14,113 nt of DNA, from the IMG/VR virus record IMGVR_UViG_2778261687_000004, positions 1-14,113 of that record; one strand, given 5' to 3'. Position 1 is the first letter of the stretch. Each line of letters opens with the position of its first letter. The notes under the pieces are model-generated. The model searched no databases and was not told the origin of the DNA. It saw only the letters and a list, made by a program, of their open reading frames with translations. Positions 1,435-13,114 of this stretch are shown piece after piece. This DNA is from a virus. Its lineage: Duplodnaviria; Heunggongvirae; Uroviricota; Caudoviricetes. The translations under genes were made by a program, and so were the position numbers.

Positions 1435-1641
1435 CTTCATTTTCACTTTTTTAAATCCAACGACAGACGGCTGGCATTTAAGTATTGTGAAATATTATCA
1501 AATGTAATCATCATTGATTTACAAAAGATACATTTTGCCCCGAAAGGATTCATGTCAGAAACATCAAAAGATGATGTTCTATACTGGGAACCATGACAAC
1601 ACGGGCATCTAAAGTGAATATGGTTTGTAATATTGTCTACC

Positions 1642-1854
1642 TCAAAGCGCCACTACATGAACAGCGGCAGGACCTTTAGGTCCGTTCTCAATACCAAATT
1701 CAACTTCCTGATTCTCAGTTAATGTTTTGAAATCGTTGCTCTGAATTGCTGAGAAATGGACAAACACATCTTTGCTGCCATCTTTCGGCGTGATGAAACC
1801 AAAACCTTTTTCAGGGTTAAACCATTTCACTAAACCAGTCATTTTGTTAGACAT
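1642..1854 (-). CDS. cspI: Cold-shock protein, CspA family (70 aa)
   Basis: [38 protein letters not shown]... contains the canonical cold-shock domain RNP motifs (KGFGFI, VFVHF). Paralog assignment is by synteny next to the lysis cassette. Confidence 0.88.
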
Positions 1855-2216
1855 AATTATTACCTTTTGAAGAAATTAGCCCTTGGGCAGAATGGTCCGA
1901 AAAAAAATATCAGAGAGAAAAACCAACAAGGAAATCTCAAGAGGTACAAATAATAAAATTATAACAATGACTGCTTCAGATAAATTTGTAACAAACCAGA
2001 ACACCATTAACGCATGATTAACCACCCATAGCAAGGATTACTTTTGTAAAGAAAAACACAGCAATGAAAGAATAGCTTTATTTATTAATAAAACGTGTCA
2101 TTCTGATTAAGACCTTTTATCTTACCCTTAAGATTTCAGGAATTTTGGCTCATGGAAGAGTCCTTTTTATTTAAATTTTACATTCCGCGATGTAAATGTT
2201 CCGATTTAATATTACC

Positions 2217-4243: not shown

Positions 4244-4524
4244 GAGATTGTGGTGCTTTTTGTGGGAGTCATCCACTTACGCACTTTGTTTTGCCATGCC
4301 AGCAGTTAGCTTCTGCTGTAAAACTATTCATGCAGCAAACCTGCACTTCACCACAATGGTTAGCATACTTTTCCTGATTAAGATTTTGCCAAATATGCTA
4401 GCCATTGTTTCATGTATTGGACCTCCTTACTTTTTATTAAAGAGATCCAATATTCACTACTCTGTCCGTATCTCTACTCAGGCATCAGCCTTCTTCGTTA
4501 TCGTATACAGACGAGCGATGAATT

Positions 4525-4740
4525 TTAATCAGTAATGATGACATTTGCTGCTGCAGGACCTTTAGCACCACTCTCTATAGAGAAGGTAACCTTTTGACCT
4601 TCAAATAAGGTTCGATAATTATCATTCTGAATCGCAGAAAAATGCACAAACACATCTTTACTACCATCAACAGGAGAAATAAAGCCGAAACCTTTATCAG
4701 CGTTAAACCATTTTACTAAACCAGTCATTTTATTTGACAT
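4525..4740 (-). CDS. cspB: Cold-shock protein, CspA family (71 aa)
   Basis: [67 protein letters not shown]...; RBS AAGGAA; long 5' leader. Confidence 0.88.
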
Positions 4741-4757
4741 TCTACATTCCTTAACTT

Positions 4758-4769
4758 GAGCCTTTCGGC
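4758..4769 (-). promoter_or_regulatory. csp 5'-UTR 'upstream box'-like element (GCCGAAAGGCTC) just 5' of the cspB SD
   Basis: Minus strand reads ATGCCGAAAGGCTCAAGTTAAGGAATGTAGA-ATG. This is one mismatch from the cspA-family upstream-box consensus GCCGAAAGGCACA as I recall it. Confidence 0.5.
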
Positions 4770-5040
4770 ATAAATGGTTTGCATAACAGAAACGACTTCG
4801 TACTTAATTGGAGAGACTCAAAGAAGGAATAAGTGAATAACACCTGAAATGAGAACTGCTTTAGTAAACTACTTCGTATATCGTCTGTTCTTCAAACCGA
4901 CGCAATCATTAACGCATAGTTGAACATATGAAGCAATGTTTATTTTAGACATCCAGCCATCTTCAACCCCATCAAAAAACTATAGCTTTCTTCAGGAACG
5001 TGTGTATAGTGCGCCAAGTTATCAGTATTAAGGAATTTTT

Positions 5041-5674: not shown

Positions 5675-6427
5675 TTATCTCGTCACCTTCCTCAATTGCG
5701 CTTCCGCGTATGCTTCTTCCTGCCAGCACTTTGTTACCAGTTTACCAATGACGTCCGCATACCCCTTATACCACTGATAATCGGTCAGGTCTGGTACCAG
5801 CTTCTGGACATGACGTCGTGCCAACGTGGTCGGTAAACGACTAAACCGGTTTCCATTACAACGCCCACAAATCTTATATACCGGTACGCCATGAAACCGG
5901 GTTCTTTTTTCATCCAGAACAATCCCTTTACCCTTACACCCTCTGCACGCTGTGCTGGCTTCGCCCTTACCATGGCAATGCTGACATAGTTCCTTCACCC
6001 ATTATTCCTTGATTACAGATTCCCCGCGTCTGTAGTGTTTCACCACTTCGCGCAATACATTATAAAATCCCGTACCTGAACAATGCTCACAGCGAGCCTT
6101 ACTTGCCGCAGACCTGGAGTAATCAGCAAAGGCAAAACTCACGAGGTAAGGAATAATCTGTAACCGGATTTCTTCACTCAATTTGTTCAATGTCGGGTTA
6201 TCCAGTGCCATCGCGTAATTTAGCAGGCCTTCAATCGCAAACTGAGGGTCCTGAACACCAACTTTTGCCAGAAATAAGGCCAACCCAAGTGGTGCTTTCG
6301 ACTGCACCATCCCCTGCGCTGCCATTACATCCGTAATTGTTAAACAACCGGTGCCTGTCGCTGGAGCGTCATCGCTCAATTTTGGAGATTTTGGGGAGTA
6401 ATATTTTGGTAAGGCTTCAAGGTTCAT
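5675..6427 (-). pseudogene. quuQ: Lambdoid late-gene antiterminator Q homolog interrupted by an in-frame TAA (plus 6002-6004)
   Basis: Track ORFs 6002..6457 (N-terminal part) and 5675..5998 (C-terminal part with zinc-finger CxxC...CxxC: CQHCHGKGEASTACRGCKGKG...CGRCNG) are in the same frame, separated only by TAA-TGG. ATG 6427 has RBS GGAGAA; counting the stop as a codon gives 250 codons. Confidence 0.75.
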
Positions 6428-6440
6428 GCTCGTTCTCCAC

Positions 6441-7325
6441 TTACGCCAGTACGCCAATTGCCAGCGCGCGATCGATAAAACGAAATATCAGCTCCAGTTG
6501 AGAGCCATACTTATCTTCAAATGCCACTGTATCCGTATGCAGCTCGTTGTGATGCTTTCTGCACAAAGGCAACACAAAGAGATCATGTGCTTTTGTTCCC
6601 ATTCCGCCCTGCCCGTGACCAATCAGATGATGCGGATCGTCGGCTGGCATACCGCAGCAAGCACACGGCTGTGTCTTAACCCAACGTGTGTATTTCTCCT
6701 TAACCCAGCGGCGACGTTTAGGCAGCTTCATGAAAGATTCCGGAGACTCTGGATCAACGGTGATGCTTACCACCGTCTTTTCCTGTGGTGATTTTTGTTG
6801 CTGGTGGGCGTAAGGCAACGGTGCAAGATTTTTTGTGCGTTGTTTCAATATGCTGGTGGCGGTCTGCTCTCCCGGTACGATGTCGCTTTCGCGGTACACC
6901 GAGCAGATTTTTTCCGCTGGTAATCCCAGCGAACGACGCGATACAGCCTCAGGTAGTGCATCCACCACCTGATTGCAGACCGCCCACCAGGATAATTCAG
7001 CCAAAGATAATTCCCGCTCCTGCGTACCGCTTATTGCGTGACGGATGACGTCAATCACCCATGCTGTCAGATTTTGTTGAGCAAGCAGCTCCAGTGATTC
7101 CGATGTCTGGTCACGCAGTTGGTTGTCGCAGTGCCAGCACAACACCATTGCGCCGGTACCATAACGGTGAATGACTGTTTCAGTGTGATGGTAATCGCCA
7201 TTAGGCCACTGGCAGGATGTAACATGACGTAATAGCCAGTCGGACAATGCGCCAACCCGCGCCTGCGGTAAGAATGAATCAGCCATTCGGCCTGTTCTGC
7301 AGTGCATGGAGGGTGCTGGAACCAT
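6441..7325 (-). CDS. ydfU: DUF968-family prophage protein with C-terminal HNH/zinc-finger-like motif (YdfU-like); probably the 3' portion of a frameshifted gene
   Basis: 294-aa ORF; C-terminus CACCGMPADDPHHLIGHGQGGMGTKAHDLFVLPLCRKHHNELH. Its ATG is immediately preceded by an in-frame TGA and has no SD. Confidence 0.8.
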   Translation of the reverse strand: MVPAPSMHCRTGRMADSFLPQARVGALSDWLLRHVTSCQWPNGDYHHTETVIHRYGTGAMVLCWHCDNQLRDQTSESLELLAQQNLTAWVIDVIRHAISGTQERELSLAELSWWAVCNQVVDALPEAVSRRSLGLPAEKICSVYRESDIVPGEQTATSILKQRTKNLAPLPYAHQQQKSPQEKTVVSITVDPESPESFMKLPKRRRWVKEKYTRWVKTQPCACCGMPADDPHHLIGHGQGGMGTKAHDLFVLPLCRKHHNELHTDTVAFEDKYGSQLELIFRFIDRALAIGVLA

Positions 7326-7414
7326 TCAGACTTGAATGCGTGAGAATACCGCCCGTGCGTGCAGGCAAGAACGGGCGAATTATCAGAATTGTAATATTTT
7401 GCGTTGCGTGCCAT
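7067..7414 (-). CDS. ORF with good RBS that overlaps ydfU in another frame; likely the true 5' end of ydfU (frameshift near 7250-7260) or, less likely, a separate overlapping gene
   Basis: ATG 7414 preceded by CCGGAGAAAACCG. The first ~50 aa look protein-like (MARNAKYYNSDNSPVLACTHGRYSHAFKSEWFQHPPCTAEQAEWLIHSY...); the remainder is low-complexity (C/W/T-rich) while the ydfU frame becomes protein-like at the same point. Confidence 0.35.
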   Translation of the reverse strand: MARNAKYYNSDNSPVLACTHGRYSHAFKSEWFQHPPCTAEQAEWLIHSYRRRGLAHCPTGYYVMLHPASGLMAITITLKQSFTVMVPAQWCCAGTATTNCVTRHRNHWSCLLNKI

Positions 7415-7752
7415 CGGTTTTCTCCGGTGGCACGGTGTTACTCAGCGGGAGTTCAGCCCCGCGCAAGATTGTAGATGAGTTTATTCTCCTGAAAAAGCAG
7501 AAAAGCCAGCTTTTATTCCGATCTCTTTCAATGCCTGTAATGAAGTGACAAACTCACCTTCGCGCAAGATAAATCCGTCCGTGACCTGACCTGTCGATAA
7601 AGGAACGTAACACGTTTTATGCAACACCCGCATGCGGCAGAAAATTATTGCCGAACGTTTACCCCTGTCAACAAGCTTTACTTTCTGAGGCGCGCCAGCC
7701 CGCGAGGAAAACAATCTGAACATCAAACAATTAATGACACAAGAAATACGAT

Positions 7753-7779
7753 TAAAGATTTTTTTGTGCATGCCGATAG
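7753..7779 (+). promoter_or_regulatory. Sigma28 (FliA) class promoter for flxA
   Basis: TAAAGATT (7753-7760), 11-nt spacer, GCCGATAG (7772-7779), matching the sigma28 consensus TAAAGTTT-N11-GCCGATAA; lies 24 nt upstream of the flxA ATG. Confidence 0.65.
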
Positions 7780-7802
7780 TGCTTTTTTAAAAGGAGAAAT
7801 CT

Positions 7803-8135
7803 ATGTCTGTCACAATTCAGGGAAATACCTCAACCGTTATTTCAAACAACTCCGCCCCGGAAGGAACATCAGAAATAGCCAAAATCACAAGACAAATTCA
7901 GGTGCTGACTGAAAAGCTTGGGAAAATCTCATCGGAAGAGGGGATGACGACACAGCAGAAAAAAGAAATGGCTGCATTGGTACAGAAGCAAATTGAAAGC
8001 CTCTGGGCTCAACTGGAGCAGTTGTTAAGGCAGCAGGCAGAGAAAAAGAATGAAGACGCGACAGTTCAGCCTGATAAAAAAGAAGAGAAAAAAGACGATA
8101 CAAATACCGCTGGCACCATTGATATTTACGTCTAA
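7803..8135 (+). CDS. flxA: FliA-regulated prophage protein FlxA (110 aa)
   Basis: MSVTIQGNTSTVISNNSAPEGTSEIAKITRQIQVLTEKLGKISSEEG...; RBS AAGGAG; sigma28 promoter upstream. Recognised from memory of FlxA. Confidence 0.85.
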   Translation: MSVTIQGNTSTVISNNSAPEGTSEIAKITRQIQVLTEKLGKISSEEGMTTQQKKEMAALVQKQIESLWAQLEQLLRQQAEKKNEDATVQPDKKEEKKDDTNTAGTIDIYV

Positions 8136-8571: not shown

Positions 8572-9885
8572 TCAATCTTTTTTATCGGGATCAGGCTTCT
8601 TTTTAGGTAACTTCGGGGGCTTAACTTGCTGATGACTTTGCGTTCGGCGCGTAAGCCAGGGATGGTCAGCTTTAGGTTTAACATAGTATTTTGAGCGTAA
8701 ATCAATACGGGCATTATCCACTCGTTCATGGACACTCTTTTCATCATCCAGTGGTATAGGCTCCGGGCCATCAACATACTTTTCCCAGCCCAGCGCTTTC
8801 CCGTCATACAGAACGTTAATTTCACCGTCAAAGTTCTCGCATACAGTAACAACCGAATGCCTAAGTCGATATCCCCGGCCCTCACTGCGTACCTGAAACG
8901 CACTGCTTTTGTACTGGAAAGTGAGATTTTTAGACAGAACGCGCTTCGCCTGTAGGCTGAAGATATAACCCAGTTCCTCTTCAGAATGGTGCACATCAAG
9001 ATGAGCATTATCAGTAGTACGAGGCGACGTAGCGAACCGGTTGTTATAGGCTTCAATAAAGGTCGGCAACCATGCATTTGCTGTTTCAATATCACTGATA
9101 TTCTGAAGCCGCATTTCTTTGACCAGCCTGTCCTGTAGTGTCTGATTGGCGCGCTCTACCCGCCCTTTTGCCTGCGGGCTGTTGGCATGGATTGGCTCGA
9201 TGCCCAGTGTCTTTATCGCACGAGTGAACTGGGTCAGCTCACCTTCCCGCTCTGGGTTATTTACCCTGAATATACTGTGTCTATCAGAGTAGAGAGCGAG
9301 CGGTACGCCATGATCATTAAGGTAACCCCGGAGGGTTTCCATGTAAGCCCGGGTTGTTTCAGCAGGCACAAAACGCAACGCCATCAACGCACTGGTGGCA
9401 TCATCAATGAAAACGATCAGTGTACATCTGGGGCCTCGATTTTCAAACCAGTCATGAGGTGAGCCATCAATCTGGATCAGTTCACCGTAAGATGGTCGTC
9501 GCATGCGGCGTTGATATATACGGGCAATTTTACGACGGCGTTCACGCCATAACCCCTCTTCTATCATCCACTTTCTGAGAGTTTCAACGGATAAAGATAA
9601 ACCGTGTATCTCGCGCAATTTTTCGCACGCAAACGTAGGTCCAAAATCAGCGTAACGGCCTTTGAGGAGTGAAATTACTGTTGCTCTGAATTCAGTAGAA
9701 AAGGAATTATTAGGACGCTTTCCACGTCGGTGGGAAACCAGACCAGAAGGCCCTTCATTTCTATACCGTTGCACCAGACGTTTAACCTGCCGAATAGAAA
9801 TGCCAATGCGTGCCGCAGCTTGTTCCTGAATAATCTGAAGTCGGTGGAGTTCCTTATGACTCATCGTAACAGTCTCTTTGATCAT
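8572..9885 (-). CDS. Transposase-like protein, N-terminal HTH plus DDE/rve integrase-core domain and C-terminal extension (437 aa); probably IS481-family-like, family not verified
   Basis: N-terminal HTH (GISIRQVKRLVQRYRNEGPSGLVSHRRGKRPNN); D residues in LIQIDGSPHDWF and VFIDDATS; HANSPQAKGRVERANQTLQDRL resembles the retroviral-integrase-type E motif. RBS TGGGGGAT upstream of ATG 9885. Confidence 0.8.
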   Translation of the reverse strand: MIKETVTMSHKELHRLQIIQEQAAARIGISIRQVKRLVQRYRNEGPSGLVSHRRGKRPNNSFSTEFRATVISLLKGRYADFGPTFACEKLREIHGLSLSVETLRKWMIEEGLWRERRRKIARIYQRRMRRPSYGELIQIDGSPHDWFENRGPRCTLIVFIDDATSALMALRFVPAETTRAYMETLRGYLNDHGVPLALYSDRHSIFRVNNPEREGELTQFTRAIKTLGIEPIHANSPQAKGRVERANQTLQDRLVKEMRLQNISDIETANAWLPTFIEAYNNRFATSPRTTDNAHLDVHHSEEELGYIFSLQAKRVLSKNLTFQYKSSAFQVRSEGRGYRLRHSVVTVCENFDGEINVLYDGKALGWEKYVDGPEPIPLDDEKSVHERVDNARIDLRSKYYVKPKADHPWLTRRTQSHQQVKPPKLPKKKPDPDKKD

Positions 9886-9973
9886 GAAAAATCCCCCAGA
9901 GAATTGTCTGGGGACATTTTAGAATGGTTCAAAGGGGACATTACAGCTTGGTGTTAACAATAGCCTGCTTCTC

Positions 9974-9989
9974 CGTGCCTTTCGGCACG
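9974..9989 (-). other. GNRA-tetraloop hairpin (CGTGCC-GAAA-GGCACG) resembling a csp 'upstream box', followed by SD-like GGAGAAG, with no nearby start codon
   Basis: Minus strand reads ACGTGCCGAAAGGCACGGAGAAGCAGGC; GCCGAAAGGCAC matches the cspA-family upstream-box consensus as I recall it. Confidence 0.4.
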
Positions 9990-10219
9990 TAAGAGGCTAA
10001 CCTACATGTGTCTAGCATGAAATTGGCCTCAGATTAATGTTAAGCGTCTTGCAGGACGCGTAATGTTAACTGGGGCTTTTCTCTATCTGCCGTTGGTGTC
10101 CATGCCCGAGGCAGATAGCCTCAAGCACCCGCAGTCATTCTACTTAACTAAGATTTCCCCGCAAACCGTTTTTGTCCAGCACAGTAAATATCCAACTAAA
10201 CCAATGGAGTTCGCTGTAT

Positions 10220-11016: not shown

Positions 11017-11316
11017 TCAGCAGCACTTCCACCGCGTAGCCTCCATAATTGCAGGCACTAGCGCCGTGAACTTTTCACGCTTATCCCTGGTGTCGATAGC
11101 CTTCCAGCGTTCAAATATCTTCACTCGATTAACGCCAAGCGCTCGCTGATCAATCGCGCCACCTTCATATGTGACACGCTGAACATCGATGTTCGGGCGC
11201 TCTTTCAAAGCCCAGAATGCTTCAGTGATTAATATCGTCGCCTGCTCCTGTGTCATTCCTGGTCGACATATCCAGGCATCCAGAGCCTCACGAGCCTGTT
11301 CAGGAGTGATTTTCAT
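11017..11316 (-). CDS. Hypothetical 99-aa protein immediately downstream of dicC, overlapping it by 17 nt (ydfX position)
   Basis: ORF MKITPEQAREALDAWICRPGMTQEQATILITEAFWALKERPNIDVQRV...; the dicC stop (11300-11302) lies inside it in another frame. Weak SD. Confidence 0.5.
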   Translation of the reverse strand: MKITPEQAREALDAWICRPGMTQEQATILITEAFWALKERPNIDVQRVTYEGGAIDQRALGVNRVKIFERWKAIDTRDKREKFTALVPAIMEATRWKCC

Positions 11317-13061: not shown

Positions 13062-13114
13062 TTTCTGGTGACGTTTGGCGGTATCAGTTTTACTCCGTGA
13101 CTGCTCTGCCGCCC
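13062..13114 (+). ncRNA. dicF: DicF small regulatory RNA (about 53 nt; ftsZ-targeting), processed from the dicB operon transcript
   Basis: TTTCTGGTGACGTTTGGCGGTATCAGTTTTACTCCGTGACTGCTCTGCCGCCC followed by TTTTT (13115-13119), between ydfC and dicB; recognised from memory of the DicF sequence; preceded by a GC-rich structured region. Confidence 0.8.

What the first reader, a model, noticed from the sequence alone, without database searches (positions are those of the whole stretch)
6441..7414. DUF968 gene appears frameshifted near its 5' end
An ATG at 7414 with a good SD opens a frame whose first ~50 residues look protein-like, but the DUF968/HNH-like body (6441..7325) is in a different frame, and its own ATG follows an in-frame TGA with no SD. 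The frames exchange plausibility around plus 7250-7260 (GCGCGGG context), where adding one base would fuse them into a roughly 324-aa protein.
Basis: inference. Interest (0 to 1): 0.45.

Follow-up and report, generated by a model that had tools for sequence, protein, structure and literature searches.

The report
Deletion-truncated ydfU pseudogene in Qin prophage
A 356-base deletion in the E. coli Qin cryptic prophage has removed the start of the ydfU nuclease gene and the end of the small gene in front of it, joining the two remnants out of frame; this is ordinary prophage decay, not a single-base frameshift.

Summary
Two minus-strand frames swap plausibility at 7250-7260, exactly as described.

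The window is the E. coli Qin cryptic prophage. Compared with K-12 and with its closest complete genome, it lacks 356 bp at 7256|7257, with a 3-bp microhomology (AAC).

The deletion removed:
- the native SD and GTG start of ydfU and its first 78 codons;
- the 1-nt spacer;
- the last 121 nt of a separate, conserved 92-aa upstream gene.

The ATG at 7414 is that upstream gene's start, not ydfU's. Intact YdfU proteins are about 349 aa, and homologues down to 29% identity align from residue 1. The "324-aa protein" would therefore be a chimera that no homologue has.

The remnant keeps the whole DUF968/HNH domain and is identical to K-12 YdfU residues 79-349. It has no SD and no native start, so I call it a pseudogene.

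The junction was not found in 5,426 complete E. coli genomes, GTDB representative genomes, JGI metagenomes or IMG/VR.

The same 14 kb carries two more private deletions, a nonsense codon in the Q antiterminator ydfT, and frameshifts in gnsB and rzpQ. This is ordinary prophage decay and of low interest.

The parts
6441..7256 (-). ydfU remnant: codons 79-349 plus the stop codon. It contains the complete Pfam DUF968 / HNH (His-Me finger) domain.
   Evidence: The protein is identical to K-12 YdfU residues 79-349. DUF968 scores 256.6 bits against a cut-off of 27.8, and HNHc_6 scores 26.9 bits. Alignments to K-12 and EC17CM13 are collinear up to 7256.
7254..7256 (.). Deletion junction. AAC (GTT on the minus strand) is a 3-bp microhomology present at both breakpoints of the reference. 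356 bp are missing between 7256 and 7257.
   Evidence: Exact-match extension from both sides and breakpoint sequences. An imperfect direct repeat follows both breakpoints in K-12; 15 of 500 shuffles reach its score.
7257..7414 (-). 5' remnant (52 codons plus 2 nt) of a separate conserved 92-aa phage gene (WP_012304870.1, phrog_1212, function unknown).
   Evidence: Annotated as a separate CDS 1 nt upstream of ydfU in MC1061, EC17CM13 and phage PPompW. phrog_1212 E = 1.7e-35. pN/pS is 0.29 in its own frame and above 1 in the other two.
7422..7425 (-). Shine-Dalgarno GGAG of the upstream gene, 7 nt before ATG 7414.
   Evidence: Read directly from the sequence. The same sequence is present in K-12.
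7067..7414 (-). Chimeric 115-aa ORF: 52 native residues of the upstream gene followed by 63 residues read out of frame through ydfU.
   Evidence: ORF list and alignment. No gene with this exact product is on record in the collection searched.
7257..7325 (-). 23-codon leader of the 294-aa ORF. It is upstream-gene sequence read in the wrong frame. ATG 7325 follows an in-frame TGA and has no SD.
   Evidence: These 23 residues (MVPAPSMHCRTGRMADSFLPQAR) do not align to any YdfU.
5675..6427 (-). Context: ydfT (Q antiterminator), immediately downstream of ydfU, carries a private nonsense mutation (E142 GAA to TAA; stop codon at 6002-6004).
   Evidence: No complete E. coli genome shares the change; the best identity is 99.1%.

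Best explanation
The window is the E. coli Qin cryptic prophage.

Shown:
- One 356-bp deletion with a 3-bp microhomology (AAC) removed four things. These are the last 121 nt of a 92-aa upstream gene, the 1-nt spacer, ydfU's own ribosome-binding site (GGAGG, embedded in the end of the upstream gene) and GTG start, and YdfU codons 1-78.
- 356 is 2 mod 3, so the two remnants are joined out of frame.
- Translation from the surviving SD/ATG at 7414 gives 52 native residues and then 63 residues of nonsense, ending at 7067.
- The ydfU frame is open only from an ATG at 7325 that has no SD and lies in out-of-frame upstream-gene sequence.

Inferred:
- The deletion arose by illegitimate recombination or replication slippage. 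An imperfect direct repeat next to the breakpoints may have helped.
- ydfU here is a dead 5'-truncated pseudogene, and so is the upstream gene.
- What was lost is a phage nin-region nuclease: a conserved N-terminal region joined to a C-terminal zinc-binding HNH (His-Me finger) domain. The closest solved structures are the P1 Ref RecA-dependent nuclease and DLP12 YbcO.
- The event is one of at least six gene-inactivating lesions private to this copy of Qin, which fits neutral decay of a defective prophage.
For: - Collinear alignment to K-12 MC1061 and to EC17CM13 shows a clean 356-bp gap at 7256/7257. The flanks are 100% identical on both sides.
- In K-12 the deleted segment contains '...tGGAGGtaacGTG', which is ydfU's SD and start.
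- Full-length YdfU matches phrog_96 over positions 1-334 of 334, E = 2.8e-171.
- Most close family members are 347-352 aa. Representatives at 29-58% identity align from their residue 1 to query residue 1. Near-invariant G14, P39, G48 and V72 lie in the lost part.
- The separate upstream gene is conserved at 77% amino-acid identity, with the same 1-nt spacing, in PPompW phages. Its pN/pS is 0.29.
- The remnant retains the complete DUF968 domain.
- Other private lesions in the window are listed. They are deletions of 1432 bp and 2519 bp, a ydfT nonsense codon, and gnsB and rzpQ frameshifts.
Against: - No reads are available, so a sequencing or assembly origin of the gap cannot be excluded directly.
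- The junction was found in no other sequence, so there is no independent confirmation.
- A 3-bp microhomology alone is weak evidence for mechanism (about 6% by chance).
- Lack of expression of the truncated ORF is inferred from the missing SD and start. It was not measured.
- YdfU's nuclease activity has never been demonstrated experimentally, as far as the searched literature shows.
Confidence: 0.9

Rival explanations
1. One reading: a single gene of about 324 aa starting at ATG 7414, knocked out of frame by loss of one base near 7250-7260.
For: The frame arithmetic is correct. The starts are 89 nt apart, so one added base fuses the ORFs.
Against: - Intact homologues show two genes, not one, and a 356-bp rather than 1-bp difference at this point.
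- YdfU's own N-terminus (MRVLLRPVLV...) is conserved down to 29% identity and is absent from the window.
- The only fused protein found, P0003 (438 aa), is a singleton that joins the complete upstream ORF to complete YdfU. It is not this architecture.
Confidence: 0.01
2. Sequencing or assembly artefact: the source genome has intact ydfU and the 356-bp gap was created by misassembly.
For: - The junction is unique among all collections searched.
- Two other differences in the window are single-T changes in T8 and T6 homopolymers. These are typical of long-read errors, so the assembly may not be error-free.
Against: - There is no long repeat at the breakpoints that could collapse an assembly, only 3 bp plus weak similarity.
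- Assemblers rarely drop 356 bp of unique sequence.
- Two other clean deletions with 6-bp and 2-bp microhomologies, and a nonsense substitution, occur nearby. This fits a truly decayed locus.
Confidence: 0.06
3. A functional arrangement. Either -1 ribosomal frameshifting from the 7414 frame into the ydfU frame makes a chimeric nuclease, or an N-terminally truncated HNH nuclease is made from ATG 7325.
For: - The ydfU frame is -1 relative to the 7414 frame, and the two frames overlap over 7325-7067.
- The HNH domain is fully intact and identical to K-12.
Against: - No X XXY YYZ slippery heptamer is present in the overlap when the 7414 frame is read.
- ATG 7325 has no SD.
- The arrangement is conserved nowhere.
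- The neighbouring late-gene activator ydfT is itself nonsense-mutated.
Confidence: 0.03

Closest known systems
YdfU of E. coli K-12 Qin prophage (b1560, WP_001265198.1; Pfam DUF968 PF06147; phrog_96 'HNH endonuclease')
   Same: - Residues 79-349 are 100% identical.
- Same genomic position, directly upstream of the Q antiterminator ydfT.
- Complete DUF968/HNH domain.
   Different: The window copy lacks codons 1-78, the native GGAGG SD and the GTG start. It is fused out of frame to the upstream gene.
WP_012304870.1, the 92-aa hypothetical protein upstream of ydfU (phrog_1212, unknown function)
   Same: The first 52 residues, the SD and the ATG are identical.
   Different: The last 40 codons are deleted and replaced by 63 out-of-frame codons from ydfU.
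P1 Ref (PDB 3plw) and DLP12 YbcO (PDB 3g27): His-Me finger group 7 and related HNH nucleases
Other deletion scars in cryptic prophages, such as the K-12 Qin ydfX and tail-fibre remnants annotated 'partial in the middle of a contig'
   Same: The same kind of event: internal deletions that truncate genes and create chimeric ORFs. Database proteins that join YdfU residues 1-150/270 to tail-fibre or J-protein domains look like similar scars.
   Different: This particular junction is not present in any searched collection.

Membership tests
DUF968 / YdfU family (PF06147, phrog_96) | Significant match to the DUF968 profile | tested here: met
   256.6 bits against a gathering cut-off of 27.8, covering profile positions 1-171 of 171.
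DUF968 / YdfU family (PF06147, phrog_96) | Full-length architecture of about 349 aa with the conserved N-terminal region (residues 1-78) | tested here: not met
   Homology starts at YdfU V79. Family members at 29-58% identity align from residue 1. phrog_96 covers 1-334 of 334 in intact YdfU.
DUF968 / YdfU family (PF06147, phrog_96) | Own translation start (GGAGG SD plus GTG/ATG) 1 nt after the stop of the upstream 92-aa gene | tested here: not met
   This segment lies inside the deleted 356 bp.
DUF968 / YdfU family (PF06147, phrog_96) | Position in the lambdoid nin region, just upstream of (rusA and) Q | tested here: met
   ydfT (Q) starts 14 nt after the ydfU stop in the window. The order is the same in K-12 and PPompW.
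His-Me finger (HNH) nucleases | Beta-beta-alpha-metal fold with a Cys/His zinc site and a catalytic His | tested here: met
Single-base frameshifted pseudogene | Collinear alignment to the intact gene with a 1-2 nt indel at the frame switch | tested here: not met
   The gap at the frame switch is 356 bp and spans two genes.
Programmed -1 ribosomal frameshift gene | Slippery heptamer in the overlap, and conservation of the two-frame arrangement in homologues | tested here: not met
   No X XXY YYZ motif is present in the 7414 frame between 7325 and 7067. The junction is absent from all collections.
Lambda Orf/NinB-like recombination mediator fused to HNH (proposed for Gram-positive DUF968 proteins, PMC4118853) | N-terminal domain with the Orf (PDB 1PC6) fold or a NinB profile match | tested here: inconclusive

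The most novel reading that the evidence does not exclude
This copy of Qin may have been silenced by selection rather than by drift. Of the ten private differences from the nearest complete genome, six destroy genes: ydfU plus its upstream gene, rem-hokD-relBE-ydfV, the replication/YdaT block, the Q antiterminator, Rz and gnsB. Alternatively, the intact HNH domain may still be expressed as an N-terminally truncated, deregulated nuclease.
Probability: 0.05. Interest if true: 0.3.

Novelty: already known. Interest (0 to 1): 0.08.

Why it matters
It matters mainly for annotation. Two coordinate ranges should be called as truncated pseudogenes caused by a single deletion: 6441-7256 is ydfU missing its N-terminus, and 7257-7414 is the upstream gene missing its C-terminus. 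They should not be annotated as one frameshifted gene or as two novel ORFs.

It also shows that this strain's Qin prophage is further decayed than any of the 5,426 complete E. coli genomes compared. It has lost the relBE and hokD toxin-antitoxin loci and a functional Q. That could matter to anyone using the strain for work on persistence, toxin-antitoxin systems or cryptic prophages. No new biology is implied.

Tried and rejected
- **Exact-product look-ups** of the 115-aa and 294-aa ORFs found nothing on record.
- **Junction searches.** A 38-nt exact junction pattern gave zero hits in GTDB representative genomes, JGI metagenomes and IMG/VR. A 44-nt junction megablast against 5,426 E. coli genomes gave no match. 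The source strain stays unidentified.
- **P0002** (278 aa, 100% identical) looked like a possible twin of the truncation. Its N-terminus (MIRAAGGVGAL...) is native YdfU sequence from an internal start call, not this junction.
- **YdfU N-terminus joined to other domains.** Proteins with YdfU residues 1-150/270 joined to other domains looked like evidence for a mobile N-terminal module. The partners are tail-fibre or J-protein domains, so these are probably other deletion chimeras.
- **Sequence search of the PDB** with YdfU gave nothing significant. NCBIfam had no model for either protein.
- **Programmed frameshifting** was considered and rejected because there is no slippery site and no conservation.
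- **The promoter/terminator scan** of 6300-8000 gave nothing above shuffle expectation that bears on the finding.

Full report
**What is in the sequence.**
On the minus strand, an ATG at 7414-7412 is preceded by GGAG (7425-7422, 7-nt spacer). It opens a 115-aa ORF that ends at 7067. A second ORF of 294 aa (7325..6441) carries the DUF968 domain. Its ATG directly follows an in-frame TGA (7328-7326) and has no Shine-Dalgarno sequence. The two starts are 89 nt apart, so one extra base would fuse them into 324 aa.

**Where the window comes from.**
The whole window is the Qin cryptic prophage of E. coli, running from ynfO/ydfO through cspI, rrrQ, essD, cspB, cspF, ydfT, ydfU, flxA, dicC and dicA to dicB/ydfD. 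The closest complete genomes, for example strain EC17CM13, are about 99.9% identical. Even so, the 14,113-base window spans 18,420 bases in them, in four collinear pieces.

**The lesion.**
- Alignment to K-12 MC1061 (L002) and EC17CM13 (L003) shows that homology to ydfU runs up to window 7256. Homology to the gene upstream of ydfU resumes at 7257.
- 356 reference bases are missing in between (L002 10655-11010).
- A 3-bp microhomology, AAC, is present at both breakpoints.
- In K-12 the two breakpoints are each followed by a weakly similar stretch of about 30 nt. Its local alignment score is 12 against 7.7 +/- 1.6 in shuffles, and 15 of 500 shuffles reach it. This may have favoured slipped mispairing, but the evidence is marginal.

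**What was deleted.**
In K-12, EC17CM13 and (at 77% protein identity) the PPompW/Stx2a phages, ydfU (1050-1056 bp, 349-351 aa) is preceded by a separately annotated 279-bp gene for a 92-aa protein. That protein is WP_012304870.1, phrog_1212, of unknown function. Its stop is separated from the ydfU start by 1 nt.

K-12 reads '...atc tgG AGG TAA c GTG cgg gta...'. YdfU's strong SD (GGAGG) therefore sits in the last codons of the upstream gene, and ydfU starts with GTG.

The 356-bp deletion removed:
- the last 121 nt of the upstream gene;
- the spacer;
- this SD and start codon;
- YdfU codons 1-78.

Because 356 is 2 mod 3, the remnants are out of frame. The 7414 frame gives 52 native residues (MARNAKYY...HSYRRRG) followed by 63 residues of out-of-frame ydfU. 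The 294-aa ORF is 23 residues of out-of-frame upstream-gene sequence followed by YdfU 79-349.

**The upstream ORF is a real, separate gene.**
Between K-12 and PPompW it keeps the same length. Differences fall 11/11/27 by codon position. pN/pS is 0.29 in its own frame and above 1 in the other two.

**The lost YdfU N-terminus is a conserved part of the family.**
- Intact YdfU matches phrog_96 ('HNH endonuclease') over positions 1-334 of 334, E = 2.8e-171.
- Of the 120 best database relatives of the window ORF, most are 347-352 aa.
- Cluster representatives at 29-58% identity, 320-370 aa long, align from their residue 1 to query residue 1.
- In a 48-sequence alignment, G14, P39, G48 and V72 are nearly invariant.
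- No family member starts at the position equivalent to 7325 or to V79, apart from partial gene calls. One of these is P0002, whose N-terminus is still native YdfU sequence.

**What YdfU is.**
- Pfam places DUF968 at residues 160-346. HNHc_6 and the P1 Ref family (RecA_dep_nuc) give weak hits at residues 268-328.
- This agrees with the published placement of DUF968/YdfU with DUF1364/YbcO in group 7 of the His-Me finger superfamily. That group's typical neighbours are RusA and Q (PMC5714182).
- My inference is that YdfU is a nin-region DNA nuclease acting in phage recombination or replication. Its activity has not been shown experimentally in the literature I could search.

**Status of the window copy.**
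The retained part is identical to K-12 YdfU 79-349 and includes the whole HNH motif. However, it has lost its SD, its start codon and 78 conserved residues. The only upstream in-frame ATG lacks an SD. I therefore call it a 5'-truncated pseudogene, and the upstream gene a 3'-truncated pseudogene. The absence of expression is inferred, not measured.

Programmed -1 frameshifting from the 7414 frame was considered. No slippery heptamer is present in the overlap, and the arrangement is conserved nowhere.

**Uniqueness.**
A 44-nt query centred on the junction finds nothing in 5,426 complete E. coli genomes. Matches as short as 35 nt are reported by the same method. In a 200-nt query, all 40 listed top hits are split into two pieces 356 bp apart. 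The 38-nt exact junction is also absent from GTDB representative genomes, JGI metagenome contigs and IMG/VR. Neither chimeric protein is on record. The source strain is thus not in these collections, so the deletion has no independent confirmation.

**Context: a heavily decayed prophage copy.**
Relative to EC17CM13 the window has only ten differences, and six of them destroy genes.

1. The 356-bp deletion described above.
2. A 1432-bp deletion at 7581-7586 (microhomology GTGACC). It removes the 5' part of rem, then hokD, relE, relB and all but the last 20 nt of ydfV, and creates a chimeric 96-aa ORF (7481..7771).
3. A 2519-bp deletion at 11037-11038. It removes a DUF7167 pseudogene, a methyltransferase, a DUF977 gene, a 321-aa gene and the 3' end of ydaT.
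4. A nonsense change in ydfT, the Q antiterminator: GAA to TAA at codon 142 (window 6004).
5. A +T in a T8 run at 904, which frameshifts gnsB.
6. A -T in a T6 run at 2435/2436, which frameshifts rzpQ.

Both ydfT substitutions are private: the best identity in 5,426 genomes is 99.1% over 231 nt. The two homopolymer changes could be sequencing errors. The deletions and the nonsense codon are not typical errors.

**Verdict.**
The explanation is a two-gene deletion scar, not a single-base frameshift in one gene. This is ordinary decay of a well-known cryptic prophage. It matters for annotation and is of low scientific interest.

Noticed in passing
window 5675-6427 (-), stop at 6002-6004: ydfT, the Qin Q antiterminator, carries a private nonsense mutation (E142 GAA to TAA, C to A at 6004). 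This splits it into 141-aa and 107-aa ORFs. A second private SNP lies at 5824. No complete E. coli genome shares either change.
   Followed up: yes
window 7581-7586 (junction); chimeric ORF 7481-7771 (-): A second private deletion of 1432 bp (microhomology GTGACC) removes the 5' part of rem, then hokD, relE, relB and nearly all of ydfV. This Qin copy therefore lacks both toxin-antitoxin loci. Three complete genomes have a different, smaller rem-ydfV gap.
   Followed up: partly
window 11037-11038: A third private deletion of 2519 bp (microhomology TA) removes a DUF7167 pseudogene, a SAM methyltransferase, a DUF977 gene, a 321-aa gene and the 3' end of ydaT, relative to strain EC17CM13.
   Followed up: partly
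window 904 and 2435/2436: Single-T length changes in homopolymers (T8 to T9 in gnsB, T6 to T5 in rzpQ) frameshift both genes. They could be real mutations or long-read sequencing errors.
   Followed up: partly
window 8572-9885 (-) and 9959-10130 (-): A 437-aa ORF has HTH and rve_3 domains and is annotated as a partial ISNCY transposase in relatives. Next to it is an Rfam sok antitoxin RNA match (104 bits). This segment is absent from K-12 Qin but present in E. coli C and many other strains.
   Followed up: no
window 13063-13114 (+); 1615-2000 (-); 4509-4901 (-): Rfam finds DicF sRNA and two cspA-type thermoregulator 5' UTRs (cspI and cspB), as expected for Qin.
   Followed up: no
database proteins P0145, P0189, P0190, P0157; P0003: Several database proteins join the YdfU N-terminal 150-270 residues to tail-fibre, J-protein or glycine-rich domains. 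One singleton (P0003, 438 aa) fuses the complete 92-aa upstream ORF to complete YdfU. These look like other deletion or indel scars, which suggests ydfU is a frequent casualty of prophage decay.
   Followed up: partly
YdfU residues 93-122 (window about 7214-7125, -): A second invariant Cys/His cluster (C93-x7-HH-x15-CWHC, with C93 and C118 invariant in 48 homologues) lies in the non-Pfam N-terminal half. It looks like an additional zinc-binding motif. It is retained in the window remnant.
   Followed up: no
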